DNA of 25,906 bases, from IMG/VR virus record IMGVR_UViG_2740892258_000020; one strand, given 5' to 3'. A program made the position numbers and the translations under genes. Under the pieces are notes generated by a model. The model saw nothing but the letters and a program-made list of their open reading frames with translations. It ran no database searches and was not told the DNA's origin. Shown piece after piece: positions 1 to 22,727 of this stretch. The stretch's first letter is position 1. The number at the start of each line of letters is the position of its first letter. Source of the stretch: a virus (lineage: Duplodnaviria > Heunggongvirae > Uroviricota > Caudoviricetes).

Positions 1-774
1 TCAATCTGTCAATGCAACACCCCTTTCAACTGCAAGCCCCCAGGTAAAGCAGTCATGCCCGCGCCCCGCCAGCGCCCCGGATTTGTACGCCTCAAGCGTT
101 ACATCAGCCGGGATGGTGGTTTCGCCGTATTCTTTGCGCAGCAGTTCGATAGATTCAGCGATCAGCGCGTCGGTCAGGTCGCGTGAGCAAAACAGGTATT
201 TCACGCCACCATAAACACGGTGGAAGCCCGTAATGTTGTATTCGTAAATGTCCTCCATTGAGTTAACGCTACCTTCCTCAAACTTGTCTGTAATCGCTTC
301 TACAGCCTCTTTGGTTGGGCCATCCGTCCACGAAACATAGAGCGCGTTATAGTCACGCATACGGACAGAAAACTTCACTCCGGGGAAATGCTTTTTCAGC
401 AGAATACGGATGTTTTTAGCGGCTAGCTTGGTGGTGTTGCTTTCGGTGGCCGTGGTCAGCAATCCGGCGTTTTCCGGGTCAGCGCTGGCGCGTTCGTTCG
501 CCAGCTGGCGGGCATCTTCTTTCGCCTGGTGTCTCGCTTCGCGCTGGTCGGTCACACTCTGCACAACCTGACGGCGGGCGCGGAGTTCATCGAGTGGAAG
601 GGTCTTATCGATCACCTGGTAAAAGCGCAGGGAAGTTTCCAGCAGCGGGGCGCAGGTTGGGGCATTCAGGCCGAGGATGGTATAGCTGATTTTGCCGTCA
701 GCCAGATTAACCGCGCTTACTACATACTCGTTTTTAAAAGAGGTGAGGCACTGGCCGACAGTTAAAGTAGTCAT
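1..774 (-). CDS. hypothetical protein (257 aa) in GC-rich flank outside the prophage structural module
   Basis: ORF 1..813 on minus strand; start most likely the internal ATG at 774..772, which has AGGAGT 7 nt upstream (the ORF-track start at 813 is a GTG). Stop at 1..3. No domain recognised. Confidence 0.55.
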
Positions 775-857
775 GATGTTACTCCTGATAATCGCCGCTT
801 TGGGCTGTGTCACCGGGCGGCGGTATTGCCTCCCGATGAATTAAGTATCGCTCTTTT

Positions 858-1018
858 TGCCCTCAAAATTATGGGCGTTGGCCTCAACACGATTTTACGT
901 CACTTAAAAAACTCAGGCCGCAGCCGGTAACCTCGCGCATACAGCCGGGCAGTGACGTCATCGTCTGCGCGGAAATGGACGAACAGTGGGGCTATGTCGG
1001 GGCTAAATCGCGCCAGCG
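858..1018 (+). mobile_element. IS1 internal fragment (insB-coding portion), about 160 bp, lacking both inverted repeats
   Basis: Near-identical to the IS1 sequence as I recall it (ATTATGGGCGTTGGCCTCAACACGATTTTACGTCACTTAAAAAACTCAGGCCGCAG...GGCTAAATCGCGCCAGCG); one frame reads [23 protein letters not shown] as in InsB. Similarity stops abruptly on both sides. Confidence 0.7.
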
Positions 1019-1218
1019 AGCGTCTGCCCGTTCCATACCGGCATACAGCGCATCGCCGAGCAGAAATCACTGAGAACATCCCACGCCTTACGCTGTGTGG
1101 TCAGCCAGGCATTACAGGTGATGCGCGGCTCCGTGCCACCAAAGCCATCCGGCACCGACTGGTCGCAATACTGGCCGATGACATAATTCCTGCTTCAAAG
1201 ATTGAGAAGGAGACGAGA

Positions 1219-1617
1219 ATGTACGGAACATGCGAAACGCTATGCCGGGAGCTGGCAGCAAAGTATCCGGGAGACGCGCCGCTGATGCTGGTTATCTGGT
1301 CCCCGGAAGAAATTCAGGCCCTCGCTGACGGAATGGATATTTCCCTGTCCGATCATGAAATCAGGACTGTCCTGGCGCGCCTGGAGGACATCCCGGAAGA
1401 CCAGCGGACTGAATCCGGTATTTCTTCCGGTGCGGCGATGGAGATCATCAATAACGTGAGAGAAAACCGCCAGGTGACCGTCCCTGCTGAACTGCTGGCG
1501 TCCCTGATTCAGACCGCCGAACAGGCACTGTGGAAACGTGAGTGGGCCGCCCGTGTGTACCACGGTGTATCTGTAATTTTAAATAACTCTCCCTGGATAA
1601 AATCTTCAGAAGCATAA
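1219..1617 (+). CDS. hypothetical protein (132 aa); C-terminus probably altered by the rearrangement junction near 1567
   Basis: ATG at 1219 preceded by GAAGGAGACGAGA (GGAG-type RBS). The ORF-track start at 952 lies inside the IS1 fragment in a different frame from insB. GC-rich coding sequence switches to AT-rich after ~1567. Confidence 0.5.
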   Translation: MYGTCETLCRELAAKYPGDAPLMLVIWSPEEIQALADGMDISLSDHEIRTVLARLEDIPEDQRTESGISSGAAMEIINNVRENRQVTVPAELLASLIQTAEQALWKREWAARVYHGVSVILNNSPWIKSSEA

Positions 1618-2408
1618 AAAAGAGGCTGGCCCGGTATTCTCTCAAATAAAAAACGAGCATTTTTAAATCGACTGACATCCGGAAGAGTTGATACTTTAAA
1701 AGTAAGCCCTAATCCGTCAATTTTATAACCTGGAGATGAGGCTTCAAGGCACGCGCTTATTGCAGTGGAATCGTCATTTATACCATCACCAACAGCTCCA
1801 AAATCTTTGGGGCTAATAGCATCACGCATTTTATCCTGGAACGTTCGGTACACAGCCCCAGAACCATACTGAATAAACCAACCAAAACCACCAACAACCC
1901 CGGAGATTGCAGCATCGACATAATTACGCATTGAGCGATTATTTACAGCGTCCTGCTCAAATGATGGATCTGCAAGGTTAGAAATTTTGTTTTGCTTTGC
2001 ATCGTAATATTTTGCAAGCAAAGATGGTTTCATCAATGCACGTCTGAACCACCCAAAACATTGCTGGATCAGCATCGTCAGGTAGTCAAAGGCATCTTCA
2101 TGCACTTCGGGGAAAAATTTTCCCTGATTGCGAAGGTCTGTCTCCTGCACTACATCAAGCACACGATCTATCGTAATTCGCCATCCAGTAGCAAGCGGAG
2201 ACGGAAGAACCACAGAACCGCCACTATAAGTGCCCGCCCCAGTTACCGTATAACCGGTATCCAGAACCAATTCTGTTACGTTTCCGTTCAGGTCAGACAC
2301 CTGAACAACCAGGTCTGATTTTCTGAAAACTCGAAAAGTATACGGAAACGATGTCGTAACGCCGTTACCGGTGTATTCGTTGTGGTCAACTTCGGTTGAG
2401 ACCGTCAT
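1509..2408 (-). pseudogene. truncated tail fiber/tailspike: N-terminal virion-attachment domain plus the start of a pectate-lyase-like beta-helix (depolymerase) domain; genuine sequence ends near residue 280 (~1567)
   Basis: N-terminus MTVSTEVDHNEYTGNGVTTSFPYTF...DLVVQV is the recurring podovirus tailspike N-terminal pattern; PKDFGAVGDGINDDSTAI is a typical start of a right-handed beta-helix depolymerase domain. Only ~90 residues of that domain are present before the ORF runs into unrelated GC-rich sequence. GGAG RBS 8 nt upstream of the ATG. Confidence 0.6.
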
Positions 2409-2461
2409 GTTAAATCTCCAGATAGTCGCAGCACCCGTTGCGCCGCATATCTGGTTATTCT

Positions 2462-2483
2462 ATTACCTGGAAAACCACATATG
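2462..2483. promoter_or_regulatory. conserved 22-bp element ATTACC-N5-AACCACATATG, copy 1, upstream of the tailspike gene
   Basis: ATTACCTGGAAAACCACATATG here and ATTACCAATTTAACCACATATG at 22241..22262; both lie 30-75 bp upstream of a minus-strand late gene start. Confidence 0.45.
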
Positions 2484-2511
2484 GATAGAAAGGCTGTAAA
2501 TACGAATAGAT

Positions 2512-2527
2512 ATTACCTTTCAGGTAA
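2512..2527. promoter_or_regulatory. operator-like palindrome ATTACC-TTTCA-GGTAA, site 1, in the tailspike / 85-aa gene divergent region
   Basis: Inverted repeat TTACC-N5-GGTAA; one of five copies in the window, all intergenic. Confidence 0.55.
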
Positions 2528-2564
2528 TTTGCAAAACGTGCTGGATAGCAAACAAATTATTTGC

Positions 2565-2584
2565 TACTGTATAAATATACAGTT
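2565..2584 (+). promoter_or_regulatory. LexA (SOS) box immediately upstream of the 85-aa gene
   Basis: TACTGTATAAATATACAGTT matches the E. coli LexA consensus TACTGTATATATATACAGTA at 18 of 20 positions with the CTGT-N8-ACAG core intact; it ends 20 nt before the ATG and overlaps the likely -10 region. Confidence 0.7.
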
Positions 2585-2603
2585 ATTGCATGGAGAAGAT
2601 AAG

Positions 2604-2861
2604 ATGCAGCAGTATCACTATCCACTGGAAGACGGATTTACCGAAAGGATTCACACGCCGGGAGGCGTCAGGTCACTGGTGGAGGGATCGCACTTGATGA
2701 AATTACTCCGGGATCTCGATAAGGATGGATTTAATGTCGATGGCCCACTTGCCGAACTGACTGCACTGATTAACTACGTCACCAGCTCACAGATGTCTAT
2801 GCAGGATCTGCAAACACATCTCGACTATTGTGCCGAACAATTACGAAAACAAACCCGGTAA
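2604..2861 (+). CDS. small protein (85 aa) that is a standalone copy of the Bro-N antirepressor C-terminal domain; predicted SOS-inducible
   Basis: ATG at 2604 with GGAG 9 nt upstream (ORF-track start at 2481 is an unlikely extension). Residues ~15-75 (IHTPGGVRSLVEGSHLMKLLRDLDKDGFNVDGPLAELT...DLQTHLDY) align with the C-terminus of the 4247..4942 protein (IHSPSGVLGLTENSLLMNLLNQLQEDGHDVSGAAAELT...DIQTHAEY). Confidence 0.6.
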   Translation: MQQYHYPLEDGFTERIHTPGGVRSLVEGSHLMKLLRDLDKDGFNVDGPLAELTALINYVTSSQMSMQDLQTHLDYCAEQLRKQTR

Positions 2862-2868
2862 ATTTAAA

Positions 2869-2884
2869 GGCCGCAAGAGCGGCC
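2869..2884. terminator. shared hairpin GGCCGC-AAGA-GCGGCC between convergent genes; U-tract on the minus-strand side
   Basis: Perfect 6-bp GC stem directly after the stop of the minus-strand toxin-like gene and 8 nt after the stop of the 85-aa gene; followed on the minus strand by TTTAAATTT. Confidence 0.45.
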
Positions 2885-2885
2885 A

Positions 2886-3392
2886 TTAACAGTCGTAAAA
2901 TTCCGGGTCCCACAAACTTGCATCGCGCGGCATGGATTCTAAATTTTTCAGCCGCAAAATTCTGTCACACTCGACAAGAAGTTTTTGTTTTTGTTCGTCA
3001 ATTTCTACTTTTTTGTGTGCTGGCTCATCCCAGTAATCCAGAAGAAACGCATGTCGCTCAGACGTTACAAGATAAATCACATACACATCACTGGTTGGTA
3101 TTTTTTTATGCTTGTTGGTGGTCTTGTCTTTCTTCCCGGATGCCCAGTTTTTCCAGCATTGTTCCGTACCGCTCTCACCAAACTTGTCAGTATAGTTTCC
3201 GATGTTTACGTGAACGTGGCGTATGTGATATTCCAGCATCTCTTTCGGTGGATCCCGAAACAGAGTGTCCTTTCCGAAATCCTTATGATGACCGTAGCGC
3301 CAGTGATCTATGAACGCGTTTTTGATAGGTATTAGCTCAGGGTCCTTCCCAAAAATTCCAGGGTGAACCAACCCCTGGAATTTATTCAGCAT
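2886..3392 (-). CDS. YafO-family toxin-like protein (168 aa), probable mRNA-interferase type toxin
   Basis: Motifs resembling E. coli YafO as I recall it: PGIFGKD (YafO PDIFGRD), HVHVNIGNYTDKF (YafO IHLANENNPF), VYVIYLVTSERHAFLLDYWDEPAHKK (YafO HLVYCQGAFDEQAWLLIAILKPEPHK), plus a Lys-rich insertion. Start at ATG 3392..3390 with AGGAG 10 nt upstream; it overlaps the stop of the upstream gene by 11 nt. The ORF-track start at 3497 would give an implausible Arg/Ser/Cys-rich N-terminus. Confidence 0.5.
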   Translation of the reverse strand: MLNKFQGLVHPGIFGKDPELIPIKNAFIDHWRYGHHKDFGKDTLFRDPPKEMLEYHIRHVHVNIGNYTDKFGESGTEQCWKNWASGKKDKTTNKHKKIPTSDVYVIYLVTSERHAFLLDYWDEPAHKKVEIDEQKQKLLVECDRILRLKNLESMPRDASLWDPEFYDC

Positions 3393-3801
3393 CGTCGTAG
3401 AGCTCCTGAGCCATATCTTCGGCAGTGCGTGCAAACATCCTGCGCGAGATTGCATGAGATTTCTCGACGGACATCTTTGGGACCTCATGCATAACATTTT
3501 TGGGAGTTGTGTAATAGCCTATTACAATTTTCACACCTGACTTATGATTAATATCAGCATAATATACTTCTTGTTCAGACGTTTCACGACGAACATAATC
3601 TGCCAGTTTTCCACATTTAAATTCCCCTCCCTGATGTTTTAAAATCTCCTCAACTGCACTATTTTCAGTGAAATACCGAATAAGAAATTTCTGTCCAGAC
3701 TCTTCAGCATGAGGTATAACAGTATTATTGGAAGCCCGAACAATGGCCTTACTCAATATTTCATGGTCTTTATTTTTTTCTGATTTCCTCAAATGCTGCA
3801 T
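3382..3801 (-). CDS. unknown 139-aa protein translationally coupled to the toxin-like gene; candidate antitoxin or sensor partner
   Basis: ATG at 3801 with GAGAG upstream (ORF-track start at 3837 is TTG). Its stop lies inside the first codons of the downstream gene. Does not resemble YafN/Phd-type or RelB/RHH antitoxins that I can recognise. AT-rich. Confidence 0.6.
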   Translation of the reverse strand: MQHLRKSEKNKDHEILSKAIVRASNNTVIPHAEESGQKFLIRYFTENSAVEEILKHQGGEFKCGKLADYVRRETSEQEVYYADINHKSGVKIVIGYYTTPKNVMHEVPKMSVEKSHAISRRMFARTAEDMAQELYDDAE

Positions 3802-3933
3802 TACTGTAGCTCTCTTCGTGTTCACGGGCACCCCCAACTACCTCTAGGGTAAACATTCTATCGAAAGTATACGCATACTGGCAAAAAAATAGGCAGGTAT
3901 TTTCTGAAATGGGATCAATCAAACCACATAGGG

Positions 3934-3977
3934 TTGAAATAACGTGAGTTATGCATTTATTATTACCTTTGCGGTAA
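3934..3977 (+). promoter_or_regulatory. sigma70-like promoter (TTGAAA-17/18-TATTAT) overlapped at the -10/+1 region by operator palindrome site 2 (ATTACC-TTTGC-GGTAA, 3962..3977)
   Basis: Good -35 and -10 hexamers with correct spacing; palindrome begins inside the -10. Points toward the Bro-N gene. Confidence 0.5.
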
Positions 3978-4069
3978 ATTTACATCGCACTCCTCTTGTG
4001 CCATAGTAATCGGGCACTGGAAAAATCCAGTGCCGGGATTGGCGTCCCGGATTACTAAAAGGCGCATTC

Positions 4070-4090
4070 ACCGCGCAAGCGGTTTTTTTA
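4070..4090 (+). terminator. intrinsic terminator-like hairpin (CCGC-GCAA-GCGG with GNRA loop, then 7 T) inside the 5-prime leader of the Bro-N gene
   Basis: ACCGCGCAAGCGGTTTTTTTAT about 100 nt downstream of the promoter and about 155 nt upstream of the Bro-N ATG; preceded by two further stem-loops (4011..4036 and 4034..4050). Confidence 0.4.
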
Positions 4091-4246
4091 TGCGTATAGC
4101 ACGGCCACATTCGTATTATGGTGGGCTGTGTGGGGGCACCGAAAGGTGCGCCGGGTCCTTTTAGCCGGTTACGCCAACCCTGCACAGTTCACCACCAACC
4201 GATTGGCGTCGGTAGTGGTGATTAACCAGACTAAAAGGTAACCACT

Positions 4247-4942
4247 ATGACAGCTACAAAAAGCACGTCCATTTTTTCTTTCGAATCCCAAGCCGATATA
4301 CGGGTAATCGTCATTAATGGTGAGCCATGGTTTATCGCTTCAGATGTTTGTCGGGCTATAGGCATAGCAAATCATCGAGATGCTGTTCGAAAACTTGATG
4401 ATGATGAGAAGGGCGTCGCTTCAACCGACACCCCTGGCGGTGAGCAAGAATCGATCATCATCTCCGAGTCAGGCCTCTACACACTGATCCTCCGCTGCCG
4501 CGACGCAGTGACACCAGGCACTATCCCCTACCGCTTTCGTAAATGGGTTACAGGTGAGGTTCTTCCTCAGATCCGCCGCACCGGAAGTTACATTAAAAAC
4601 TCGCTCCCGCAGGAAGAACGCATAAAGATGGTTGCCGACCAGGTAGCCAACGCCACAGCATCAGCAGTGATGCAGGCAATGAAGATAGAGAACAAAACCT
4701 ACAGTGCCCCACTGAAGCCCGGCTACCGCAGCCTGATTCATTCGCCGTCTGGTGTTCTCGGCCTGACGGAGAACTCACTGCTGATGAATCTGCTGAACCA
4801 GTTACAGGAAGACGGGCACGACGTATCGGGCGCGGCGGCGGAGCTGACCACCATGTTCTGCTACATCGTCGGTGTGAGCAAGTGCCTGCGTGATATCCAG
4901 ACGCACGCGGAGTACATCAACGACAAGGCTGGGTTCTTCTGA
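4247..4942 (+). CDS. Bro-N domain phage antirepressor-like protein (231 aa) with a C-terminal domain shared with the 85-aa protein
   Basis: N-terminus FSFESQADIRVIVINGEPWFIASDVCRAIGIANHRDAVRKLDDDEK...ESGLYTLILRCRDAVTPGTIPYRFRKWVTGEVLPQIRRTG is the canonical Bro-N (phage antirepressor N-terminal) signature. Confidence 0.8.
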   Translation: MTATKSTSIFSFESQADIRVIVINGEPWFIASDVCRAIGIANHRDAVRKLDDDEKGVASTDTPGGEQESIIISESGLYTLILRCRDAVTPGTIPYRFRKWVTGEVLPQIRRTGSYIKNSLPQEERIKMVADQVANATASAVMQAMKIENKTYSAPLKPGYRSLIHSPSGVLGLTENSLLMNLLNQLQEDGHDVSGAAAELTTMFCYIVGVSKCLRDIQTHAEYINDKAGFF

Positions 4943-4979
4943 CGGGCGGCGGCACATGGATGTGCCTTTAAAATAATCA

Positions 4980-5023
4980 TTGGCGATGTGATGTAGATTC
5001 GCGTAATATTACCTTACGGGTAA
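4980..5023 (+). promoter_or_regulatory. sigma70-like promoter (TTGGCG-18-TAATAT) overlapped by operator palindrome site 3 (ATTACC-TTACG-GGTAA, 5008..5023)
   Basis: Same promoter/operator geometry as at 3934..3977; about 60 nt upstream of the 210-aa gene. Confidence 0.45.
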
Positions 5024-5082
5024 GAAAGCGTTTTTAATCTTCCCTTCAAAACGCGTCCTGTAGCCAAACATGGGAGGACGAA

Positions 5083-5715
5083 ATGAAAACAAATACAACA
5101 AGAAAAGCGATGCCATACATTATCCCAGAAGCAGATTTCGACAGAAAACTGAACATGTCTGAGAAGAACACTAGTCACACCGAAAGCTACTTAGCGAAAG
5201 GTGTGGTTGATTTCGTTCTTCCGGGATTCACAACACCTTATGGTTATCGCCTTGTAAAATCTTGTAATGGCGATCATTACAGAATGATTACTACCAGCGA
5301 TACTCCAGAAACGGTGTATGCGGTTAAGTTAATCTTTCGGGAAGATATCGTCGAAGCTAAAAGAACATGTACGCAGATCATGGTATGGCGTACGCCTAAT
5401 GTTATTCATGACCGTGCTGTTCATGGTTTGCCTCAGATTTTTTTTCAGTTCTTCCTAGAGCAATATGCGATCGTTGTATCTGATGAGCAACAAACAATCG
5501 ATGGGAGAAGATTCTGGGAAAGAATGATTTCTTGGGCTATAAACACCCCGGGATATAATGTATACGTTTCAGATGGCTCTGAAGAAGATAGACCTCTTAG
5601 CTTCATGACATCATGGGATGATTTCTATAGCCAGTGGGCTGATTTCTGTTGGGGCAGTGATAAAGATGTGCATACCCACAGACTACTGGTTATAAGCAAA
5701 GATAAACTGCATTAA
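5083..5715 (+). CDS. hypothetical cargo protein (210 aa), monocistronic
   Basis: ATG with GGGAGGA RBS 5 nt upstream; followed by a strong intrinsic terminator; AT-rich; no recognisable motif. Confidence 0.7.
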   Translation: MKTNTTRKAMPYIIPEADFDRKLNMSEKNTSHTESYLAKGVVDFVLPGFTTPYGYRLVKSCNGDHYRMITTSDTPETVYAVKLIFREDIVEAKRTCTQIMVWRTPNVIHDRAVHGLPQIFFQFFLEQYAIVVSDEQQTIDGRRFWERMISWAINTPGYNVYVSDGSEEDRPLSFMTSWDDFYSQWADFCWGSDKDVHTHRLLVISKDKLH

Positions 5716-5719
5716 TAGA

Positions 5720-5742
5720 AGCCCGCAGCGCGGGCTTTTTTG
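5720..5742 (+). terminator. rho-independent terminator AGCCCGC-AGC-GCGGGCT followed by TTTTTT
   Basis: Perfect 7-bp GC-rich stem and six T immediately after the stop of the 210-aa gene. Confidence 0.75.
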
Positions 5743-5813
5743 TGGACGAAACAAAAGTCAGTGCTACACTCATTGACGCCACATTGAGGTGGCTTATAGA
5801 TGGAAATTTCACA

Positions 5814-5975
5814 ATGAAAAAAGCATTTGCTGCACTGTTCGTTTTGTTGTCTCTGGTAGCTTCAACTCAGGCCTTTGCCGGTCGTTGTCAGCACGACAGC
5901 GATACTGCTGCTGACGGCTCCCGCTGCGGTGGGCGTTCTGCGGATTCCCGCCCGGGTGGCGGTGGCATTCGTTAA
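5814..5975 (+). CDS. possible small secreted peptide (53 aa): Sec-type signal peptide then a Gly/Asp/Arg-rich 31-aa mature region with two Cys
   Basis: MKKAFAALFVLLSLVASTQAFA|GRCQHDSDTAADGSRCGGRSADSRPGGGGIR. Upstream TTGACG-16-TATAGA promoter-like hexamers; weak or no SD. Bracketed by terminators at 5720..5742 and 5981..5998. Confidence 0.35.
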   Translation: MKKAFAALFVLLSLVASTQAFAGRCQHDSDTAADGSRCGGRSADSRPGGGGIR

Positions 5976-5980
5976 AAACA

Positions 5981-5998
5981 AGGCCGCGAAAGCGGCCT
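5981..5998. terminator. bidirectional hairpin AGGCCGC-GAAA-GCGGCCT; T-run on the minus-strand side terminates the 283-aa gene
   Basis: 7-bp stem with GAAA loop; on the minus strand followed by TGTTTTTAAC. Confidence 0.65.
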
Positions 5999-6004
5999 GT
6001 TTGA

Positions 6005-6856
6005 TCACTGTGCAGTTTTCGCTGATCGATTTTCAGCTCTAAATTCAAGAACCGTTTCAATATTTCTTTCCTTCAGCATATCAATAACATTTTTATTCAT
6101 TTGACTATCACTGGTTAATAACTGGTAAACGTTGCTTCTCTCTTTATCAGAGTTTTCTTTAACAGCTGCTTTGCATGCCAAATGCTTATTGAAATTTTCT
6201 ACATCGCTAGTACAGGAATTTACGGCTGCTGATGAAATATCAGACGCTGAAGAAACACCATCATCCAAACGTTTTATAGCATTTTCTATACATGAGTTAA
6301 GGGAATAAACGACAACTGAGCGATACCCTTCAGACGCACACCATTCTAAATTTCTTGAAGGATCGAGTGGTTTTACTTCGCTGGATTGAATTAACTTGTC
6401 AAAAACTGACTTATATTCAATCTGTTTTTTATCTATAGCCCATACTTCAGTAGCTGATTTATAATTCCCCGTATGCCTATTAACATCAAATCCATGTTTT
6501 ATAAGCAAATCTGCCCATGAAAGATTTATTGATTCATTGTTATGAGGCCATTTTCCTGTCAGAACCGCCCCCATAGACCCCATATATCCGCCATATGATG
6601 GTATAGCACCATGGCTCAGTAACTTCTCAGCAACCACAGGGCAATTAATTACATAAGAGGCGTAAAGCCCATTCCATAAAGCCCCTCTATAGTAATCGCC
6701 ACGATTAGGTTCTTTTAAGTCGATAGCCTTTGATAATTGTTCACACGTTTTGCATGCATCAAAGTTATCCTTATTGCATTGCAATGAACTGGCAGCTGTA
6801 GGATTTACAGAGACTATTGAAAGCACTATGCCAAAAAACAAATTTATTTTTTTCAT
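6005..6856 (-). CDS. secreted/periplasmic cargo protein (283 aa) with N-terminal signal peptide, many Cys, and possible ankyrin-like repeat motifs
   Basis: MKKINLFFGIVLSIVSVNPTAASS signal-like N-terminus; motifs PVVAEKLLSHGAIP and ADLLIKHGFDVNRHTG resemble ankyrin repeat consensus (tentative). AT-rich; ATG 1 nt after the stop of the upstream ejection-protein gene. Confidence 0.7.
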   Translation of the reverse strand: MKKINLFFGIVLSIVSVNPTAASSLQCNKDNFDACKTCEQLSKAIDLKEPNRGDYYRGALWNGLYASYVINCPVVAEKLLSHGAIPSYGGYMGSMGAVLTGKWPHNNESINLSWADLLIKHGFDVNRHTGNYKSATEVWAIDKKQIEYKSVFDKLIQSSEVKPLDPSRNLEWCASEGYRSVVVYSLNSCIENAIKRLDDGVSSASDISSAAVNSCTSDVENFNKHLACKAAVKENSDKERSNVYQLLTSDSQMNKNVIDMLKERNIETVLEFRAENRSAKTAQ

Positions 6857-6857
6857 C

Positions 6858-9800
6858 CTATTTCATCTGCTCTTCAACTTTATTTAGTAACGGTGATATT
6901 GCCCACAGGTTCTGAAAAGGTAGCATTTTACGGACCGCGTGGGTTTGCTGGCTGTCAAATTCTCCGTTAAGTACACCATTCGCAACCGTCGCGGCATCAC
7001 CGCCAAGATCAAAGGTAGGACCAAGTAAAGCACCAATAGCATTACGACTCTGAAACCTTGATACCGGAGGCGCACCAAACATCGCGCCAAGACCAAACCT
7101 ACCGCCGCTTATGTTCTCAACGGTATTCAGCGGCTCAGAGAGCCAGCCAAGCATTCCGCCCCGGTCGATCCCCTCTTTCACAAGGTTATTCCAGCTGTAG
7201 TCAATATCGCGACCGCTTAACTTCTGTTTCATCATATAGACCATTGAGCCAAGCGCAATCGTGCCAAGCGCACCAAGATAGAATGCAGCATCGCCCTGCT
7301 GGATACCAGATACCAGCACCCTGTTATGCTGTGCGAAGATAAACGTTTTGAACTGCGTGATCATCTTCCAGCCTTCTTTACTAAAAAACAGCGGTGTATC
7401 ACCTACGCCAGGCGTTACAATCACTGAGTCTACATCTTTCAGCACTGCAGACTGGAAAATCTCTCTAGCGAAACGGTCATCCCACAGATGACTATGCCCG
7501 GTTAACAGCCCGTCCATATCCTCTCCGTGCTTCCCGAATTGCTCCCCGATTCGGCGCAGAACATCTTCATTGATGCCGACCTGTGCCATCTTCCGCATTT
7601 CACTTTTGGAGAGCGTGCCACCAGCAGAAACTTGGCGAGCCGCGTCAAGTATCCTCGACTGCACTATCATCCCGGACCATGATTTAAGTGCGCTGTTCCA
7701 CTGATTCATCAGCGTCCAGTTACCGAATTTCTGCGTCATCCAGTTCAGGCCTCGCTCAGCGGCGCTTCTCCGGCTATATGGGTCAGTAAGATCCGCTATA
7801 GCCTTTGTACGCGTAGACAGGACATAATCAAGCCCAACGGCCATTTCTCGCAAATCCCTGGTTGCAATTTTCACTGAGTCCATATTTTTAAGCATGCTTA
7901 CCATTGGTCCGAGAGATTTTCTCAGGCCATGCTGCATCATCGGTCGCATCAGATCAGTTGCAGCGGAGACAGTCATTCCACCAAGCAAACGGAGGAAGTT
8001 AATATTCCTAGCAACTCGCCCGGCACGAACAAAGAAACTGCGTGGATCTTGAGGTGCACCGTAAGTACCAAGCAGTCGATCACGCATAGCCGTAATATCC
8101 CTAATATCAGCCTCCCGTTGCTTCTCAAGAACTGCACGTCGTTTAGGCGTTTTAGCCTCTTTTATTAGCCGGGTATATTCCTCACTAACCTGACGGATTT
8201 GCTCCCCCATATCTTTACGGCCAAACTGCGCAGTCAGCTCAATTTCTGGTGCCACCTGCCGGAGATAACTTTCCATGATGTAGTTAACATCTGATTCAAG
8301 AAAATCTTCTATACGCTCATCAGGAATAAGCAGCGTTCTGCTTTTAGTGAAACCAGCCCGACCAACGAGTCTCTCTGGGATAATATCGGCTGGTACAAGC
8401 CCGGAAGGTGCACCTATTATTTTATTCACGATCTCGTCAGCAGCGTCCTCTGCTTCCTCTCGGGATAGAGGCTCCATCTGCTTCAGTGCTCGTTCGCGGC
8501 TTGCATTCAGCCTTGTGGTTGAATTTGCCCGTTTTTGCAGTCGGCGAAGCTCAGAACGATATTTCCGTGGATTATCCAGCAACTCCATATGGCGCTGATA
8601 GACAGGAAGCTCACTCTTTGCCTGCGCTATATCATCAAGGCGTGTTTTAAGGTCAGAGCTTTCTTTCATCATTCTTGCCTGAAGTTTTTCTGATGAAGTC
8701 TCGGCCAACTCTTTTTCTATTCTTGTAAGACGCGCCTGTGTGTCAGTCTCCTGAGATATAAGCTTATTTCGTTTATCCAGTTCTTCCATGAGTAGAATTT
8801 TTTTACCAGACCATTTCTCCGCTTCAGCGATTTCACTAGCGAGAGCATCAGCGCGCGGTGCCGATTCCTCTGCAGTTTTTAGCAATGAATTTATCCTTTC
8901 AATTCGCTGACCTGCCTTGTCAGCACCTTTGGCACTAATCCCTTGTATCCAGTTGGCAATTCGCCCTCTGAATTCAGTGCGGTCGGAAAGTATCTTATCG
9001 AACTTATAAATGCGGGGAAGATAACTTTTCGCCGTCACGACATCGATATCCTCAGGAAGGATCCCCAGTTCCTGCATACGGGCTTTTGTGGTCTCGAAAA
9101 TGGGGCGGATTCTGGCAGCTGCTTGTGAAACCTCAGGAATATCACTCTGATCACCACGGCGCATAGCCATGCCAACAGCTTCATTGAAATCAATAAAGTT
9201 CATCCTCTTCACGCCGCGGGCGCTAACAGATTTGCTGTACTGCTGGTAAGCATCACGAGTGGCTTCCATCTGCTTATAAAGCATGGCGTCGTATTGCTTA
9301 ATCTTAGTCTCGACTGCCGTAAACGTAGCCAACCCCTCATCATTTTTGGCGAAGAAATAGTTATTTTCGGCAAGCTGCTGGTTAATCTGACGGGAGACAA
9401 GAGATGGTGATTGCGCCAAGCGGCCAGCAGGAGTGACACTCAACGTTTTGTTAGCAAGTCCAAGTCCAGCGAGCTGTTCCTGATCGAGTGTGGTATTGAA
9501 AACCTGAGCTGCACCAATGCTTTGAGGAGAATCCATACCTCGCAAATGATTACCTACTGAGTTAACCACTGCCTCGCGCGCGCCAGGTCCAGCAAGTAGC
9601 TGTGCACCAGCACCAAGGATCCCACCAACGAGAGCATCAACAACAACGTTCGATACGCTCTCCATCGGTGAGCGAGCTTCCTGAGTGGCCTGTAATGCGG
9701 CCTCTGAAGCAACACTGCCAGCAGCATTCGCCAGGGCAAAACGCCCGGCTGTTTCTGCAATACGACCGCCACGAACGACAGCGCCGAACGGAATAAACAT

Positions 9801-10247
9801 AGAAATCGCATTGAATGGATCTGCTAATCTCATTGCTACAGAAGAGACTGTACCAGCAAATCCCAAGCCTGAATTGTATTCCATGTCAGCTCTCTGCTGA
9901 TCGATTCGATGTTTAATTGCCATTGTTTCTTCAGGCGAACCGGAGTTGATAAACGAATCTGCAAAATCTTCATAGCCTTTAATATCTGCTGCATCGTTAT
10001 CAAATGGGTTATATCCTTCAACCCTGTCAAACTGACTGAAAGGAGCACTGGCAATAAAGCTACCCAGCGTGTTATCTATACGAAATGCTGCTTGTCTAGA
10101 CCTTTGAACGCGTTGATCACTGGTAAATGGGTTCACAGCAGAAAGCAAAGAAGGTGTTTCCATATAGAAATTACTGTCATCAGGTGCTGCTATTTGCTGA
10201 ATATCCTCGCCAAGCAACTCTTTAGGATCCTGTTCATATATCGGCAT
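6858..10247 (-). CDS. large internal virion / DNA ejection protein (1129 aa), T7 gp16-position analogue
   Basis: Last and largest gene of the tube/core gene run; long coiled-coil-like central region (KTAEESAPRADALASEIAEAEK...); start overlaps the upstream gene stop. Assignment by position and size. Confidence 0.55.
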   Translation of the reverse strand: MPIYEQDPKELLGEDIQQIAAPDDSNFYMETPSLLSAVNPFTSDQRVQRSRQAAFRIDNTLGSFIASAPFSQFDRVEGYNPFDNDAADIKGYEDFADSFINSGSPEETMAIKHRIDQQRADMEYNSGLGFAGTVSSVAMRLADPFNAISMFIPFGAVVRGGRIAETAGRFALANAAGSVASEAALQATQEARSPMESVSNVVVDALVGGILGAGAQLLAGPGAREAVVNSVGNHLRGMDSPQSIGAAQVFNTTLDQEQLAGLGLANKTLSVTPAGRLAQSPSLVSRQINQQLAENNYFFAKNDEGLATFTAVETKIKQYDAMLYKQMEATRDAYQQYSKSVSARGVKRMNFIDFNEAVGMAMRRGDQSDIPEVSQAAARIRPIFETTKARMQELGILPEDIDVVTAKSYLPRIYKFDKILSDRTEFRGRIANWIQGISAKGADKAGQRIERINSLLKTAEESAPRADALASEIAEAEKWSGKKILLMEELDKRNKLISQETDTQARLTRIEKELAETSSEKLQARMMKESSDLKTRLDDIAQAKSELPVYQRHMELLDNPRKYRSELRRLQKRANSTTRLNASRERALKQMEPLSREEAEDAADEIVNKIIGAPSGLVPADIIPERLVGRAGFTKSRTLLIPDERIEDFLESDVNYIMESYLRQVAPEIELTAQFGRKDMGEQIRQVSEEYTRLIKEAKTPKRRAVLEKQREADIRDITAMRDRLLGTYGAPQDPRSFFVRAGRVARNINFLRLLGGMTVSAATDLMRPMMQHGLRKSLGPMVSMLKNMDSVKIATRDLREMAVGLDYVLSTRTKAIADLTDPYSRRSAAERGLNWMTQKFGNWTLMNQWNSALKSWSGMIVQSRILDAARQVSAGGTLSKSEMRKMAQVGINEDVLRRIGEQFGKHGEDMDGLLTGHSHLWDDRFAREIFQSAVLKDVDSVIVTPGVGDTPLFFSKEGWKMITQFKTFIFAQHNRVLVSGIQQGDAAFYLGALGTIALGSMVYMMKQKLSGRDIDYSWNNLVKEGIDRGGMLGWLSEPLNTVENISGGRFGLGAMFGAPPVSRFQSRNAIGALLGPTFDLGGDAATVANGVLNGEFDSQQTHAVRKMLPFQNLWAISPLLNKVEEQMK

Positions 10248-12994: not shown

Positions 12995-13572
12995 CAGTAA
13001 CCTCCTATTTTGAATCGGGAGTCAGAATTCATAAAACCTGAGTTAGATAACATTGGCGTCCCACCACTAGATGTACTTCCTTTAGAGAACGGACTCCACG
13101 TTCCGCCGCCCAACTTATATGCACCGTATGCTTTTAGTGGTGCTGTTAACAAAGTGCTGGTCATCGATGATTTAGCAGCCGACTGAGCAGCAGCCCCCTG
13201 TGCCTGAGCATTCATTCCCTGAACCTGATACCCATATGCCTCACGCTGAGCATTATTCACTGTCGTTAACGCATCAAGAGTGCCGAACTGAGCATTATCC
13301 GCAAAAACGTCAAGAGCTGTTCCGCTACTTAATTCCGCACCGGTAGCCCCCATAGTGGCCGCCGCAGTGCCTGAGCGTTGACGCATTTCACGACGACGCT
13401 GATCTGCTTCAATATTCCCACGATTGATTGAATCCTGTGCCTGAGCTTCAGCAATTTCAGCATTCCGATCAGCTATGGCTGACTGGTATTTTGCCTGCTT
13501 GCTCTGGCTGTACATTGACGCGGCTGTGGATGCCACTGTGACGGCAACCAAAGCGATGGCTGGGTTACACAT
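12994..13572 (-). CDS. internal virion protein (192 aa) with hydrophobic N-terminal segment, T7 gp14-position analogue
   Basis: MCNPAIALVAVTVASTAASMY hydrophobic N-terminus, Ala/Gln/Gly-rich body, size close to T7 gp14 (196 aa), correct position. Confidence 0.45.
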   Translation of the reverse strand: MCNPAIALVAVTVASTAASMYSQSKQAKYQSAIADRNAEIAEAQAQDSINRGNIEADQRRREMRQRSGTAAATMGATGAELSSGTALDVFADNAQFGTLDALTTVNNAQREAYGYQVQGMNAQAQGAAAQSAAKSSMTSTLLTAPLKAYGAYKLGGGTWSPFSKGSTSSGGTPMLSNSGFMNSDSRFKIGGY

Positions 13573-14036
13573 TATTTTCTCTCCATGTGAAATCTGTGGA
13601 AATTAAGACCAATAGCACCATAAGGCGCGGCTTCTTCAAGCCTGAATCCAAGCCAGTGCAGCCATGCTTTGGCAACATGGTTTCGCTCGTCGACGTAGTT
13701 TTCCAGGCGCGGATAAACTGCCAGCATCTGCTGCAATACAGGGCGGCAGTGGCGCAGAAATGTCTTCTGATATTTTTCAATACGGCTGGTCCCGACCAGC
13801 CAGGGCGTACCATTGCCACCGATCATTGACGCCGGAGATACGCCAAACATGGTTACCAGTTCTCCGTTCGCGAACCCTGACCAGGCCATAGTCGCAGTAC
13901 GCAGACCAACACGCAGCGCATCTTCGGTAGTCATCAGTGATACCGCATACAGTTCGTCAATATCAGCCTGACGAACATCCGGCAAAATCATCTGAAGATG
14001 CTCTTCGGTTGCGGGAATAATTTGAACATCGATCAT
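13572..14036 (-). CDS. small virion-associated protein (154 aa), T7 gp13-position analogue
   Basis: Position between the tail-tubular-B-like and gp14-like genes with 1-nt overlaps on both sides; no motif confidently recognised. Confidence 0.35.
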   Translation of the reverse strand: MIDVQIIPATEEHLQMILPDVRQADIDELYAVSLMTTEDALRVGLRTATMAWSGFANGELVTMFGVSPASMIGGNGTPWLVGTSRIEKYQKTFLRHCRPVLQQMLAVYPRLENYVDERNHVAKAWLHWLGFRLEEAAPYGAIGLNFHRFHMERK

Positions 14037-22281: not shown

Positions 22282-22318
22282 TTGACATTTAACGCGTTAA
22301 TTATTACCTTTCAGGTAA
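22282..22318 (+). promoter_or_regulatory. TTGACA -35-like hexamer followed by operator palindrome site 4 (ATTACC-TTTCA-GGTAA, 22303..22318); possible plus-strand promoter for the tRNA/moron unit
   Basis: Consensus TTGACA at 22282..22287 with the palindrome centred where a -10 would be; the -10 match itself is poor. Confidence 0.4.
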
Positions 22319-22650: not shown

Positions 22651-22727
22651 CTCAGTTGGACAGAGCAACCGCCTTCTAAGCGGTTGGTCGCAGGTTCGAA
22701 TCCTGCATGCCACGCCAGAATCACGCC
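22651..22727 (+). tRNA. tRNA-Arg, anticodon UCU (reads AGA), phage-encoded
   Basis: Full cloverleaf: acceptor GTGGCAT/ATGCCAC, D-arm GCTC-AGTTGGACA-GAGC, anticodon stem ACCGC/GCGGT with loop CTTCTAA, T-arm GCAGG-TTCGAAT-CCTGC, discriminator G and encoded CCA. Similar to but distinct from host argU as I recall it. Confidence 0.9.

What the first reader, a model, noticed from the sequence alone, without database searches (positions are those of the whole stretch)
4247..4942. Bro-N antirepressor in an immI-like position between ejection-protein genes and tailspike
In P22-like phages the immI region (sieA, mnt, arc, ant) lies between the ejection-protein genes and the tailspike gene. Here a Bro-N antirepressor, its C-domain paralog, a TA-like pair, secreted proteins and an orphan gene occupy the same position (2409..6857) and are visibly AT-richer than the virion genes. 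This looks like a functionally analogous but compositionally different immunity and host-interaction island, not a simple structural module.
Basis: partly seen in the sequence, partly recalled or inferred. Interest (0 to 1): 0.55.

Follow-up and report, generated by a model that had tools for sequence, protein, structure and literature searches.

The report
RNA-controlled antirepressor beside SOS antirepressor

Summary
ORF 4247..4942 is confirmed as a Bro-N protein. It is 100% identical to ORF4 of phage vB_EcoP_ZX5, which lowered lysogeny when overexpressed. The window is the late region of an epsilon15/phiV10-like (Uetakevirus) prophage. The gene does lie between the internal-virion-protein genes and the tailspike gene.

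- The "C-domain paralog" (2604..2861) is the ortholog of the characterised SPC32H antirepressor Ant (PDB 5D50). It has a conserved LexA box and a Rep operator upstream.
- Residues 150-226 of the Bro-N protein are an Ant-like domain, so the protein is a Bro-N::Ant fusion.
- The Bro-N gene is preceded on the same strand by IsrK (4014..4089) and C4 antisense RNA (4114..4199). The a1/b1 and a2/b2 target boxes lie exactly as in phage P1 immI, and b2 covers the Shine-Dalgarno sequence. These boxes co-vary with the C4 loops across 16 phages.

So the locus is immI-like, but of the P1/Gifsy-1 RNA type, not the P22 type. The AT-rich signal comes only from the variable cargo genes. The RNA-plus-Bro-N unit is 53% GC, higher than the virion genes. 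All components belong to known families, so interest is modest.

The parts
1509..2408 (-). Tailspike gene, truncated after about 283 residues. It has an epsilon15-type N-terminal domain and an endosialidase N-extension. It marks the left border of the island.
   Evidence: Pfam End_N_terminal E=1.1e-32 and PHROG tail proteins. Homology to the full-length 1039-aa endosialidase tailspike of the APEC O18 prophage starts at 1552.
2512..2528 (.). Perfect Rep operator palindrome ATTACCTTTCAGGTAAT, upstream of ant.
   Evidence: It matches the repressor sites annotated in epsilon15 (ATTACC-N5-GGTAAT). The motif occurs 4 times in the window against 0.09 expected. The site is conserved in 5 phages.
2565..2584 (+). 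LexA (SOS) box TACTGTATAAATATACAGTT, overlapping the ant promoter.
   Evidence: It is the only match in the window to the 20-nt LexA consensus at 3 mismatches or fewer, against 0.01 expected. The CTGT and ACAG halves are invariant and the spacer varies in phiV10, EC.W1-9, SPC32H and epsilon15.
2604..2861 (+). ant: an 85-aa antirepressor, ortholog of SPC32H Ant and epsilon15 gp19.
   Evidence: 88% identical to the CDS 'ant: anti-repressor protein' of SPC32H. PDB 5D50 chain E 'Anti-repressor protein', E=4.1e-47.
2886..3392 (-). YafO-like toxin candidate (168 aa). Variable cargo.
   Evidence: PGAP names the identical APEC O18 protein 'YafO family toxin'. It is 31% identical (E=9e-23) to TL-2011b gp44, which passes Pfam YafO_toxin. 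No direct Pfam, NCBIfam or PADLOC hit.
3382..3801 (-). 139-aa gene upstream of the YafO-like gene, overlapping it by 11 nt. Putative antitoxin, with no family assignment.
   Evidence: phrog_9503, function unknown. CDS boundaries as in EC.W1-9; PGAP calls a longer 444-bp CDS in APEC O18 with the same 11-nt overlap. No Pfam hit at E<=10.
3934..4007 (+). Two tandem sigma-70-like promoters: TTGAAA-18-TATTAT at 3934-3963, and TTTACA-17-CATAGT with an extended -10 TG at 3979-4007. The second ends 7 nt before the IsrK 5' end.
   Evidence: Consensus scan. Inferred function; not significant on its own.
3962..3978 (.). Rep-operator-like site ATTACCTTTGCGGTAAA, between and overlapping the two promoters.
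   Evidence: 0 mismatches to ATTACC-N5-GGTAA. Its position is analogous to the C1 operator at P1 P2c4.
4014..4089 (+). IsrK sRNA. It contains box a1 (TTGGCGT, 4039-4045), box b1 (CTAAAAGG, 4055-4062) and its own intrinsic terminator (4070-4089).
   Evidence: Rfam RF01394, 76.7 bits against a gathering score of 50. Terminator. Boxes.
4114..4199 (+). C4 antisense RNA. The b' loop is CCUUUUAG (4157-4164) and the a' junction is ACGCCAA (4171-4177).
   Evidence: Rfam RF01695, 77.7 bits against a gathering score of 45; P1's own c4 scores 68.8. The MFE fold equals the Rfam consensus, z=-4.7.
4203..4238 (+). C4 target region in the ant-type mRNA leader. It holds a2 (TTGGCGT, 4203-4209), a conserved GTGGTGA box (4215-4221), and b2 (CTAAAAGG, 4231-4238), which covers the Shine-Dalgarno sequence 8 nt before the ATG.
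   Evidence: Exact-complement scan. The same scan recovers P1's annotated a1/b1/a2/b2 sites. Two shared boxes in both flanks occurred in 0 of 5000 shuffles.
4247..4942 (+). Bro-N::Ant fusion antirepressor (231 aa). The Bro-N domain is residues 17-107 (nt 4295-4567). The SPC32H-Ant-like domain is residues 150-226 (nt 4694-4924).
   Evidence: Pfam Bro-N. PDB 5D50_E E=1e-13 over residues 3-79 of 86. 231/231 identical to vB_EcoP_ZX5 ORF4 anti-repressor, which was tested by overexpression (PMC9782041).
5008..5024 (.). Rep-operator-like site ATTACCTTACGGGTAAG, 59 nt before orf210.
5083..5715 (+). orf210. Variable cargo, function unknown, 40.8% GC.
   Evidence: phrog_1349 over its full length. Replaced by other genes in EC.W1-9, ZX5 and TL-2011b.
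5814..5975 (+). 53-aa protein with an N-terminal signal/anchor-like sequence.
   Evidence: phrog_14503 'membrane associated protein'. TL-2011b gp43 is annotated 'putative transmembrane anchored protein'.
6005..6856 (-). orf283. A 36.7% GC gene with a signal-like N-terminus, starting 1 nt after the stop of the 1129-aa internal virion protein gene. Variable cargo.
   Evidence: phrog_6118. GC. Present in APEC O18 and EC.W1-9; absent from phiV10, TL-2011b, SPC32H and epsilon15.
6858..10247 (-). Last internal virion (ejection-type) protein gene. It marks the right border of the island.
   Evidence: phrog_342 'internal virion protein with endolysin domain', E=2e-233.

Best explanation
Region 2409..6857 is the antirepressor locus of an epsilon15/phiV10-like temperate podophage. 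It holds two antirepressors that share one repressor-binding domain but are wired to different inputs.

(1) SOS arm. The small ant gene (2604..2861) sits behind a promoter covered by a LexA box and a Rep operator. DNA damage removes LexA and Ant is made. As shown for SPC32H, Ant tetramers bind Rep dimers and break up the DNA-binding Rep tetramer.

(2) RNA arm. A Rep-operator-flanked promoter transcribes IsrK. Part of the transcripts read through the IsrK terminator into C4 and the Bro-N::Ant gene (4247..4942). C4 pairs through its b' loop and a' junction with b2 (the Shine-Dalgarno sequence) and a2 in the leader, blocking translation, as c4 does in the immI operon of phage P1. Because C4 acts in trans, a resident prophage also silences the same gene on a superinfecting phage that has the same a'/b' specificity. 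Short IsrK carries the decoy copies a1/b1. It can therefore titrate C4 or remodel the leader and switch translation on, as found for Gifsy-1 IsrK and anrP. The Bro-N::Ant protein then neutralises Rep through its C-terminal Ant-like domain.

The other genes (YafO-like pair, orf210, small membrane protein, orf283) are variable AT-rich cargo.

Shown here: the identities of the RNAs and protein domains, the box complementarities and their co-variation, the LexA box and operator motifs, and the variability of the island.
Inferred: transcription and processing, translational repression, the IsrK decoy action, and binding of the fusion protein to Rep.
For: Phage type and position.

Protein evidence:
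- Bro-N domain.
- Protein identical to ZX5 ORF4. Overexpressing ORF4 cut the prophage titre from 10^9 to 10^6 and repressor transcription by 75% (PMC9782041).
- C-terminal residues 150-226 match the SPC32H Ant crystal chain over its full length (E=1e-13). Small Ant is the SPC32H ortholog.
- Ant mechanism: a tetramer binds two Rep dimers and breaks the Rep tetramer (Kim et al. 2016, as summarised in PMC9638917 and PMC9986798).
- A Rep homolog is present in the near-identical APEC O18 prophage (E=4e-42 to 5D50_A), with operator motifs clustered around it.

Regulatory sites:
- The LexA box is conserved in 5 phages, with invariant half-sites and a variable spacer.
- Operator motifs lie at 2512, 3962 and 5008.

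RNA evidence:
- IsrK and C4 score above the Rfam gathering thresholds. They are found in the same order before antirepressor-type genes in phiV10, TL-2011b, EC.W1-9, ZX5, Stx phages, APSE-1, phiP27, Gifsy-1 and P1.
- My complement scan reproduces P1's annotated a1/b1/a2/b2 sites and finds the same four boxes here.
- There are 12 different b' and 6 different a' sequences among 16 loci. Each is matched in both targets: a1, a2 and b2 are exact in every locus, and b1 is exact in most and by my reading a G-U wobble or a shorter match in the rest.
- b2 covers the SD, and the ORF starts 46-57 nt after C4 in every locus.
- 0 of 5000 shuffles give two shared boxes.

Published mechanisms:
- Gifsy-1: IsrK in trans activates anrP translation, and a processed RNA (STnc1160) arises at the C4 position (PMC4825925).
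- P1: C4 is needed for full ant repression (PMC8198154; PMC12197685).

Modularity:
- EC.W1-9 has a different a'/b' pair and a diverged Bro-N domain, but an identical linker plus Ant domain.
- TL-2011b fuses the same Ant-like domain to P22_AR_N behind arc and sar.
- An AntA fusion also exists.
Against: - No RNA or protein experiment exists for this phage's IsrK/C4.
- In Gifsy-1, constitutive expression of the C4-region RNA made IsrK-dependent growth arrest stronger, not weaker (PMC4825925). That does not fit a simple 'C4 represses, IsrK sponges' scheme.
- The Gifsy-1 authors explain activation through a leader ORF (orf45) coupled to anrP. Here the only ORF over C4 (4090..4164, 24 codons) ends 82 nt before the ATG.
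- The Ant-like domain is only about 40% identical to Ant, and I did not check the Rep-contact residues.
- The ZX5 overexpression assay does not show direct Rep binding.
- phiV10 carries a frameshift inside the Ant-like domain, so the fusion is dispensable for at least one viable phage.
- In this genome the prophage is truncated at the tailspike, and Rep is not within the window.
- The promoter calls are consensus matches no more frequent than chance.
Confidence: 0.72

Rival explanations
1. This would be a P22-style immI analogue: a compositionally foreign 'immunity and host-interaction island' acquired as a block, with the Bro-N protein as its antirepressor and the neighbouring genes as lysogen-expressed accessory functions.
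For: - The position is the same as P22 immI (established P22 gene order).
- Island GC is 44.1% against 49.5% for the virion genes.
- The content is variable.
- TL-2011b carries arc-sar-ant at this position.
Against: - There is no Arc, no P22_AR domain and no sar RNA in the window.
- The antirepressor unit is GC-rich (53%), and ant is conserved across the whole genus. The island is therefore a conserved core plus separately acquired cargo, not one foreign block.
- Rep-operator-like sites precede the plus-strand units. This argues that they are repressed in the lysogen.
Confidence: 0.15
2. Same parts, opposite RNA logic. The leader would work as proposed for Gifsy-1: the read-through transcript folds into a translationally inert structure in cis. 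Short IsrK opens it in trans. C4 would be only a processing by-product, or a termination factor like P4 CI, rather than a translational repressor conferring immunity.
For: - Genetic and structural probing in Gifsy-1 (PMC4825925).
- The 249-nt leader folds very stably (-105 kcal/mol, z=-6).
- A conserved GTGGTGA box (4215-4221), complementary to the 3' strand of the C4 stem, allows alternative folds.
Against: - Three-way co-variation of a'/b' with both a1/b1 and a2/b2 across 16 loci, including P1, where C4 is a proven trans-acting repressor of ant.
- b2 sits on the SD in most loci and on the start-codon region in two others.
- There is no coupled leader ORF here.
Confidence: 0.2
3. The Bro-N protein is not an antirepressor of the phage's own Rep. 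It would instead be a DNA-binding regulator or host-takeover/toxic protein of the KilA-N/Bro-N class, or a trans-acting inducer of other prophages. The Ant-like tail would serve only for oligomerisation.
For: - Bro-N domains are DNA-binding modules of diverse function.
- phiV10 tolerates a frameshift in the tail.
- Gifsy antirepressors act in trans on other prophages (PMC3121763 abstract).
- The AlphaFold model was uninformative.
Against: - The identical ZX5 protein shifts the phage's own lysis-lysogeny balance.
- The tail is homologous over its full length to a structurally defined Rep-binding protein.
- The tail stays constant while N-domains and RNA leaders are exchanged, as expected if it is matched to the resident Rep.
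Confidence: 0.12
4. In this particular genome the module is an inert relic, because the prophage is decaying.
For: - The tailspike is cut at about residue 283 and joined to plasmid leading-region fragments, an IS transposase and the fec operon.
- The lysis genes that follow the tailspike in APEC O18 are absent from this side.
Against: - All island ORFs and RNAs are intact.
- The island is 100% identical to that of the complete APEC O18 prophage, and the Bro-N protein is identical to that of the viable phage ZX5. Any decay is therefore recent and has not touched this locus.
Confidence: 0.25

Closest known systems
vB_EcoP_ZX5 ORF4 anti-repressor (Uetakevirus; PMC9782041)
   Same: The protein is identical, 231/231. 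It occupies the same position next to ant and an endosialidase tailspike, and the same IsrK and C4 lie upstream.
   Different: The ZX5 island lacks the YafO-like pair and has other cargo downstream. The paper does not mention the RNAs, the small ant gene or the Ant-like C-domain. The ZX5 record annotates an 'ash family protein' CDS over C4.
SPC32H Rep-Ant antirepression system (Kim & Ryu 2013; Kim et al. 2016; PDB 5D50/5D4Z)
   Same: - The small ant is 88% identical and sits at the same locus.
- The LexA box and Rep operator upstream are conserved.
- A Rep homolog is present in the sister prophage.
- The Bro-N protein carries an Ant-like domain.
   Different: SPC32H has only the small Ant at this locus. 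It has no Bro-N fusion and no IsrK/C4 here. I could not open the two primary papers. The mechanism is taken from papers that cite them.
Phage P1/P7 immI operon (c4-icd-ant1/2)
   Same: - The RNA family is the same (RF01695).
- The order is the same: promoters with a repressor operator, then a1 b1, C4, a2 b2, then the ORF.
- The boxes are the same length (7 and 8 nt), and b2 lies at the ribosome-binding site.
   Different: There is no icd-type leader ORF, so b2 sits directly on the antirepressor's SD. The antirepressor is unrelated to P1 Ant1 (tblastn E>0.3). The upstream a1/b1 segment is a discrete terminated sRNA (IsrK). The host phage is a podovirus with a different repressor.
Gifsy-1 isrK-orf45-anrP locus (PMC4825925)
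   Same: IsrK with its own terminator, a C4-family RNA, a2/b2 boxes and an antirepressor gene occur in the same order and spacing.
   Different: AnrP is an ORF6N protein, not Bro-N::Ant. The b' specificity differs. No orf45-like ORF is coupled to the start codon here. The Gifsy-1 locus lies next to antQ in a lambdoid nin/Q region, not among the virion genes.
Phage P22 immI (mnt-arc-sar-ant)
   Same: It has the same map position, between the ejection-protein genes and the tailspike, and the same biological role (an antirepressor kept off in lysogens).
   Different: There are no Arc/Mnt proteins, no sar RNA and no P22_AR domains in the window. Such a module does occur in this island in TL-2011b.

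Membership tests
Bro-N domain proteins (PF02498) | Match to the Bro-N profile above the gathering score. | tested here: met
   76.7 bits against a cut-off of 25.6; profile positions 1-96 of 96; residues 17-107.
SPC32H-type Ant antirepressors | Sequence homology to the Ant chain of PDB 5D50 over its whole length. | tested here: met
   Small Ant: E=4.1e-47. Bro-N protein residues 150-226: E=1e-13, covering chain positions 3-79 of 86.
SPC32H-type Ant antirepressors | LexA box and Rep operator at the ant promoter. | tested here: met
   Met for the small ant (2565-2584 and 2512-2528). The Bro-N gene has a Rep-operator-like site (3962-3978) but no LexA box.
SPC32H-type Ant antirepressors | A cognate Rep repressor in the same phage. 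| tested here: inconclusive
   Rep is not in the window. It is present in the APEC O18 prophage, whose island is 100% identical (E=4e-42 to 5D50_A).
SPC32H-type Ant antirepressors | Physical binding to Rep and disassembly of the Rep tetramer. | not testable with these tools
   Needs biochemistry. The AlphaFold monomer model had pLDDT 51 and was not used.
P1/P7-type immI (C4 antisense control) | C4 RNA homolog with the consensus fold. | tested here: met
   RF01695, 77.7 bits against a gathering score of 45. The MFE fold is identical to the consensus, z=-4.7.
P1/P7-type immI (C4 antisense control) | The a' and b' segments of C4 are complementary to a2 and b2 downstream, with b2 at the ribosome-binding site. 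| tested here: met
   4171-4177 pairs with 4203-4209, and 4157-4164 pairs with 4231-4238 (the SD, 8 nt before the ATG). The pairing co-varies across 16 loci.
P1/P7-type immI (C4 antisense control) | Upstream duplicate targets a1 and b1. | tested here: met
   4039-4045 and 4055-4062, inside IsrK.
P1/P7-type immI (C4 antisense control) | An icd-type leader ORF translationally coupled to ant. | tested here: not met
   b2 lies directly before the Bro-N ATG. No Icd homolog was found (tblastn E>0.6).
P1/P7-type immI (C4 antisense control) | An antirepressor homologous to P1 Ant1/Ant2. | tested here: not met
   tblastn of P1 Ant1 against the window: best E=0.36, elsewhere in the window.
P1/P7-type immI (C4 antisense control) | C4 is processed from the operon transcript and represses ant translation in trans. 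| not testable with these tools
   Requires Northern blots or reporter assays.
Gifsy-1 isrK locus | IsrK RNA with an intrinsic terminator, upstream of the antirepressor gene. | tested here: met
   RF01394, 76.7 bits against a gathering score of 50. Terminator at 4070-4089.
Gifsy-1 isrK locus | An orf45 leader ORF coupled to the antirepressor, and an ORF6N-type AnrP. | tested here: not met
   The only ORF over C4 is 4090..4164 (24 codons), ending 82 nt before the ATG. The protein is Bro-N, not ORF6N.
P22-type immI | Arc/Mnt repressors, sar antisense RNA, and an Ant with P22_AR_N/C domains. | tested here: not met
   No sar hit. No Arc match (E>=0.79). The P22-type Ant of TL-2011b matches the window only through its shared C-terminal Ant-like domain. 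No P22_AR domains in the Bro-N protein.
YafNO-type type II toxin-antitoxin | Toxin matches the YafO profile. | tested here: inconclusive
   No direct Pfam or NCBIfam hit, even at E<=10. Homologous (E=9e-23) to TL-2011b gp44, which scores 26.3 against a cut-off of 25 on PF13957. PGAP names the identical protein YafO family toxin.
YafNO-type type II toxin-antitoxin | A recognisable antitoxin encoded upstream and overlapping the toxin gene. | tested here: inconclusive
   The 139-aa upstream gene overlaps by 11 nt but has no family beyond phrog_9503, which is of unknown function.

The most novel reading that the evidence does not exclude
In the epsilon15-like phages of enterobacteria, the locus before the tailspike gene may be a multi-input antirepressor hub. 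One Rep-specific 'warhead' (the SPC32H-Ant domain) would be kept by the lineage and plugged into interchangeable sensor cassettes:
- a bare LexA/Rep promoter;
- an IsrK-C4 RNA leader plus a Bro-N domain, exchanged as a unit that also sets RNA-immunity specificity;
- in some members, arc-sar plus a P22_AR_N domain, or an AntA domain.

As a corollary, Gifsy-1 'orf45/STnc1160' would be the C4 RNA, and IsrK would be the a1/b1 anti-antisense decoy of a P1-type immI operon. That would unify two systems that reviews still treat separately.
Probability: 0.45. Interest if true: 0.5.

Novelty: new member of a known kind. Interest (0 to 1): 0.3.

Why it matters
It corrects the annotation of a widespread E. 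coli K1/APEC prophage family. The 'hypothetical' 85-aa gene is the SOS antirepressor. The Bro-N 'anti-repressor' is a fusion carrying the same Rep-binding domain. Two unannotated RNAs, sometimes mis-called as 'Ash' or 'Rha' CDSs, most likely set its translation and its immunity specificity.

It gives testable predictions for how these prophages are induced and how they exclude or cross-induce relatives. It also links the Gifsy-1 IsrK story to the classical P1 c4 mechanism.

It does not reveal a new kind of system. Every component belongs to a described family.

Tried and rejected
- Pfam, NCBIfam and PADLOC on the YafO-like pair, orf210, orf283 and the small membrane protein gave no direct hits. 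Their functions stay open.
- A LexA box at the IsrK/Bro-N promoter was looked for and not found.
- tblastn for Arc, P1 Ant1, Icd, KilA and Gifsy-1 AnrP in the window found nothing.
- By eye, the C-terminus of the Rha-type protein behind C4 in Stx2a phage 131990 resembles Ant. This was not supported (BLASTP E=0.048 on a different segment; no PDB hit) and was dropped.
- The AlphaFold2 model of the fusion, built with a 24-row alignment that is deep only over the C-domain, gave mean pLDDT 51. No fold search was run on it.
- The two primary SPC32H papers could not be opened. The mechanism is cited second-hand.
- The homolog search with the Ant profile listed mainly stand-alone 85-86-aa proteins in its top 120. 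The frequency of fused architectures was therefore not quantified.
- The Rfam c4-a1b1 family did not reach threshold in the window itself, although it did in P1, Gifsy-1, APSE-1 and an Stx phage. Boxes a1 and b1 were located here by complementarity instead.
Full report
WHAT THE WINDOW IS. The window is the late-gene half of an epsilon15/phiV10-like temperate podophage (genus Uetakevirus). The virion genes are on the minus strand.
- PHROG profiles identify the terminase, portal, major head protein, tail tube proteins and four internal-virion/ejection-type proteins (12994..13572, 13572..14036, 10247..12994, 6858..10247).
- They also identify a tailspike gene with the epsilon15-type N-terminus (1509..2408).
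- The closest phage records are EC.W1-9, vB_EcoP_ZX5, TL-2011b and phiV10.
- Region 2409..6857 is 100% identical to a prophage beside yfgI in the E. coli APEC O18 chromosome.
- The window itself comes from NCBI assembly GCA_001245225.1, contig CVOH01000153.1.

CHECK OF THE OBSERVATION.
- ORF 4247..4942 is present and carries a full Bro-N domain (E=2.3e-21).
- It lies between the last internal virion protein gene and the tailspike gene, as stated.
- The 'C-domain paralog' is real (E=8e-16).
- The composition claim is only half right. The island averages 44.1% GC against 49.5% for the virion block, which is lower than any equally long stretch elsewhere in the window. But the Bro-N gene with its leader (4014..4942) is 53.3% GC, the richest part.
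- The low values come from the YafO-like pair, orf210, orf283 and the spacers.
- The 'orphan' orf210 has a full-length PHROG family.
- The 'TA-like pair' is supported only indirectly. The 168-aa protein is homologous (E=9e-23) to TL-2011b gp44, which just passes Pfam YafO_toxin, and PGAP gives the identical protein that name. Its upstream partner has no known family.

An Rfam scan at gathering thresholds gives two hits on the plus strand immediately upstream of the Bro-N gene. They are IsrK (4014..4089, 76.7 bits) and C4 antisense RNA (4114..4199, 77.7 bits). For comparison, P1's own c4 scores 68.8 bits on the same model.
- C4 folds on its own into the consensus shape, with z=-4.7.
- Reading the sequence and scanning for exact complements shows two pairings.
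- The loop of the second C4 hairpin, CCUUUUAG (4157-4164), is complementary to CUAAAAGG at 4231-4238. That site is the Shine-Dalgarno region, 8 nt before the ATG.
- The single-stranded junction ACGCCAA (4171-4177) is complementary to UUGGCGU at 4203-4209.
- Both target boxes occur again inside IsrK (4039-4045 and 4055-4062).
- The same script, run blind on phage P1, returns the a1, b1, a2 and b2 sites annotated in the P1 GenBank record; only b1 comes out 1 nt shorter than annotated.
- In 5000 shuffles of the two flanks, two shared boxes never occurred.

COMPARATIVE TEST. I collected the same RNA pair from 15 other loci: phiV10, TL-2011b, EC.W1-9, ZX5, several Stx-converting phages, Hafnia yong2, a Yersinia phage, APSE-1, phiP27, PhiR47_1, Gifsy-1 and P1.
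- The b' loop takes 12 different sequences and the a' junction 6.
- In every case a1, a2 and b2 carry the matching complement. b1 does so exactly in most loci; in the rest, by my reading, the match needs a G-U wobble or is shorter.
- This is three-way co-variation, and it is strong evidence that these pairings are selected.
- The first ORF always starts 46-57 nt after C4.
- That ORF encodes a Bro-N, ORF6N or Rha-type regulator, or a short ORF of 63-77 aa at the position that icd occupies in P1.
- The IsrK-C4 leader is therefore a portable controller of antirepressor-type genes, and the window holds one more instance of it.

THE PROTEINS. The Bro-N protein is 231/231 identical to ORF4 of vB_EcoP_ZX5.
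- In that phage, overexpressing ORF4 lowered the prophage titre about 1000-fold and repressor transcription by 75% (PMC9782041). The antirepressor label therefore has experimental support.
- A search of solved structures shows why. Residues 150-226 match, over its whole length, the 'Anti-repressor protein' chain of PDB 5D50 from Salmonella phage SPC32H (E=1e-13).
- The small gene 2604..2861 is the true ortholog of that Ant. It is 88% identical to the SPC32H CDS named ant, with E=4e-47 to the crystal chain.
- According to papers citing Kim et al. [quoted passage not shown]
- Rep is outside the window. The APEC O18 sister prophage encodes a 194-aa homolog (E=4e-42 to 5D50_A).

REGULATORY SITES.
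- Upstream of the small ant lies TACTGTATAAATATACAGTT (2565-2584). It is the only near-consensus LexA box in the window.
- In an alignment with phiV10, EC.W1-9, SPC32H and epsilon15, its CTGT and ACAG halves are invariant while the spacer varies.
- Fifty bases further upstream is ATTACCTTTCAGGTAAT. This matches the repressor sites annotated in the epsilon15 record, consensus ATTACC-N5-GGTAAT.
- The motif is strongly over-represented: 4 sites against 0.09 expected, and 13 strand-matches against 0.3 expected. It clusters around rep in the sister prophage.
- In the island it also occurs at 3962-3978, between two tandem promoter-like sites that end 7 nt before IsrK. It occurs at 5008-5024 before orf210, and with one mismatch at 3837-3852 by the divergent promoter of the YafO-like operon.
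- The arrangement at IsrK resembles P1, where a C1 operator overlaps the distal of two c4 promoters.

MOST LIKELY MECHANISM. There are two antirepressors sharing one Rep-binding domain.
- SOS arm: DNA damage inactivates LexA, small Ant is made, Rep is disassembled and induction follows. This is established for SPC32H (as summarised in PMC7380047).
- RNA arm: IsrK is transcribed and mostly terminates. Read-through yields C4 and the Bro-N::Ant mRNA. C4 occludes the SD through b'/b2 and a'/a2, as in P1 immI, where C4 is needed for full ant repression and determines P1/P7 hetero-immunity.
- IsrK carries a1/b1. It can sequester C4 or remodel the leader, which would explain why IsrK in trans activates anrP translation in Gifsy-1.
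- The steps from transcription onward are inferred for this phage.
- One Gifsy-1 result does not fit a simple sponge model: more C4-region RNA made the IsrK effect stronger. I therefore keep the 'cis-structure switch' reading as a rival.

MODULARITY.
- EC.W1-9 differs from the window in a', b' and their targets, and in the Bro-N domain. It is identical from residue ~103 onward. The RNA leader and N-domain therefore move together, while the Ant-like tail stays with the lineage.
- TL-2011b has, in the same island, the small ant, the IsrK-C4-Bro-N::Ant unit and a third gene. In that third gene the same tail (84% identical) is fused to a P22_AR_N domain behind an Arc-like repressor gene and a sar RNA.
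- A partial AntA/AntB protein with the same tail also exists.
- SPC32H and epsilon15 have only ant and a small membrane-protein gene at this position.
- The conserved core of the 'island' is therefore ant. The E. coli members added further antirepressor cassettes and unrelated AT-rich cargo.

VERDICT.
- The interpretation 'immI-like' is right in spirit, but the locus is of the P1/Gifsy-1 RNA-controlled type combined with the SPC32H SOS type, not the P22 type.
- The antirepressor unit is not compositionally foreign.
- The protein is already published, and the RNAs and the Ant domain belong to described families. This is a new member of known kinds.
- The added value is the integrated wiring diagram and the link between IsrK and P1 c4.

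Noticed in passing
window 1..1555 and the junction at 1552-1555: The tailspike gene is cut after about 283 codons and reads into foreign DNA. Homology to the intact APEC O18 tailspike starts at 1552. Homology to plasmid DUF1380 genes (99.5%) runs up to 1555, and 30..867 is 100% identical to an LPD29 gene of IncN-type plasmids. No record in the plasmid or E. coli collections spans the junction. In the source contig the next genes are an IS transposase and the fec operon. The prophage therefore appears truncated at its tailspike/lysis end.
   Followed up: partly
window 22303..22319 and 22641..22717: A tRNA-Arg (anticodon UCU) lies between the terminase and portal modules. A Rep operator (ATTACCTTTCAGGTAAC) lies upstream of the portal operon, at the place where epsilon15 also has an annotated repressor site. 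Two further operator-like sites sit inside the small terminase gene (25449-25483).
   Followed up: partly
window 4215..4221: A box, GTGGTGA here and 6-9 nt long in the other loci, lies between a2 and b2. It is complementary to the 3' strand of the C4 closing stem. It is found as an exact match in all examined loci except APSE-1 and P1; I checked P1 by eye and it has a near-match. It could put a2 in a hairpin loop, or compete with the C4 stem in the unprocessed transcript.
   Followed up: no
window 4090..4164: A 24-codon ORF starts right after the IsrK terminator and ends inside the C4 b' loop. It occupies the place of Gifsy-1 'orf45', whose nucleotide sequence but not its protein sequence is reported as conserved. 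This fits the idea that the region is the C4 RNA rather than a coding gene.
   Followed up: partly
window 3837..3884 and 5008..5024: Rep-operator-like sites also sit by the divergent promoter of the YafO-like operon (one mismatch) and before orf210. Cargo genes may therefore have been brought under the phage repressor.
   Followed up: no
L003 (phiV10) 5890..6569: The phiV10 Bro-N gene is identical to the window's up to residue ~183. It then shifts frame, splitting off the Ant-like domain (annotated as p23 plus the tiny p22). This is either a real pseudogene or a sequencing error.
   Followed up: partly
L002 (TL-2011b) 8645..9829: In the same island, TL-2011b carries a P22-type module: an Arc-like gene, a sar RNA (Rfam 44.8 bits) and an Ant with a P22_AR_N domain. 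Its C-terminal 100 residues are 84% identical to the tail of the window's Bro-N protein and match PDB 5D50_E (E=7.5e-14).
   Followed up: yes
L021 1779..1892; L006 1288..1971; L011 1125..2273: Public annotations place protein CDSs ('ash family protein', 'Ash family protein', 'Rha protein') over the IsrK and C4 RNAs. These are probably mis-calls.
   Followed up: partly
window 6005..6856: orf283 (36.7% GC, GC3 28%, signal-like N-terminus) starts 1 nt after the stop of the 1129-aa internal virion protein gene, on the same strand. It is likely co-transcribed with the late genes, although it is absent from most relatives.
   Followed up: no
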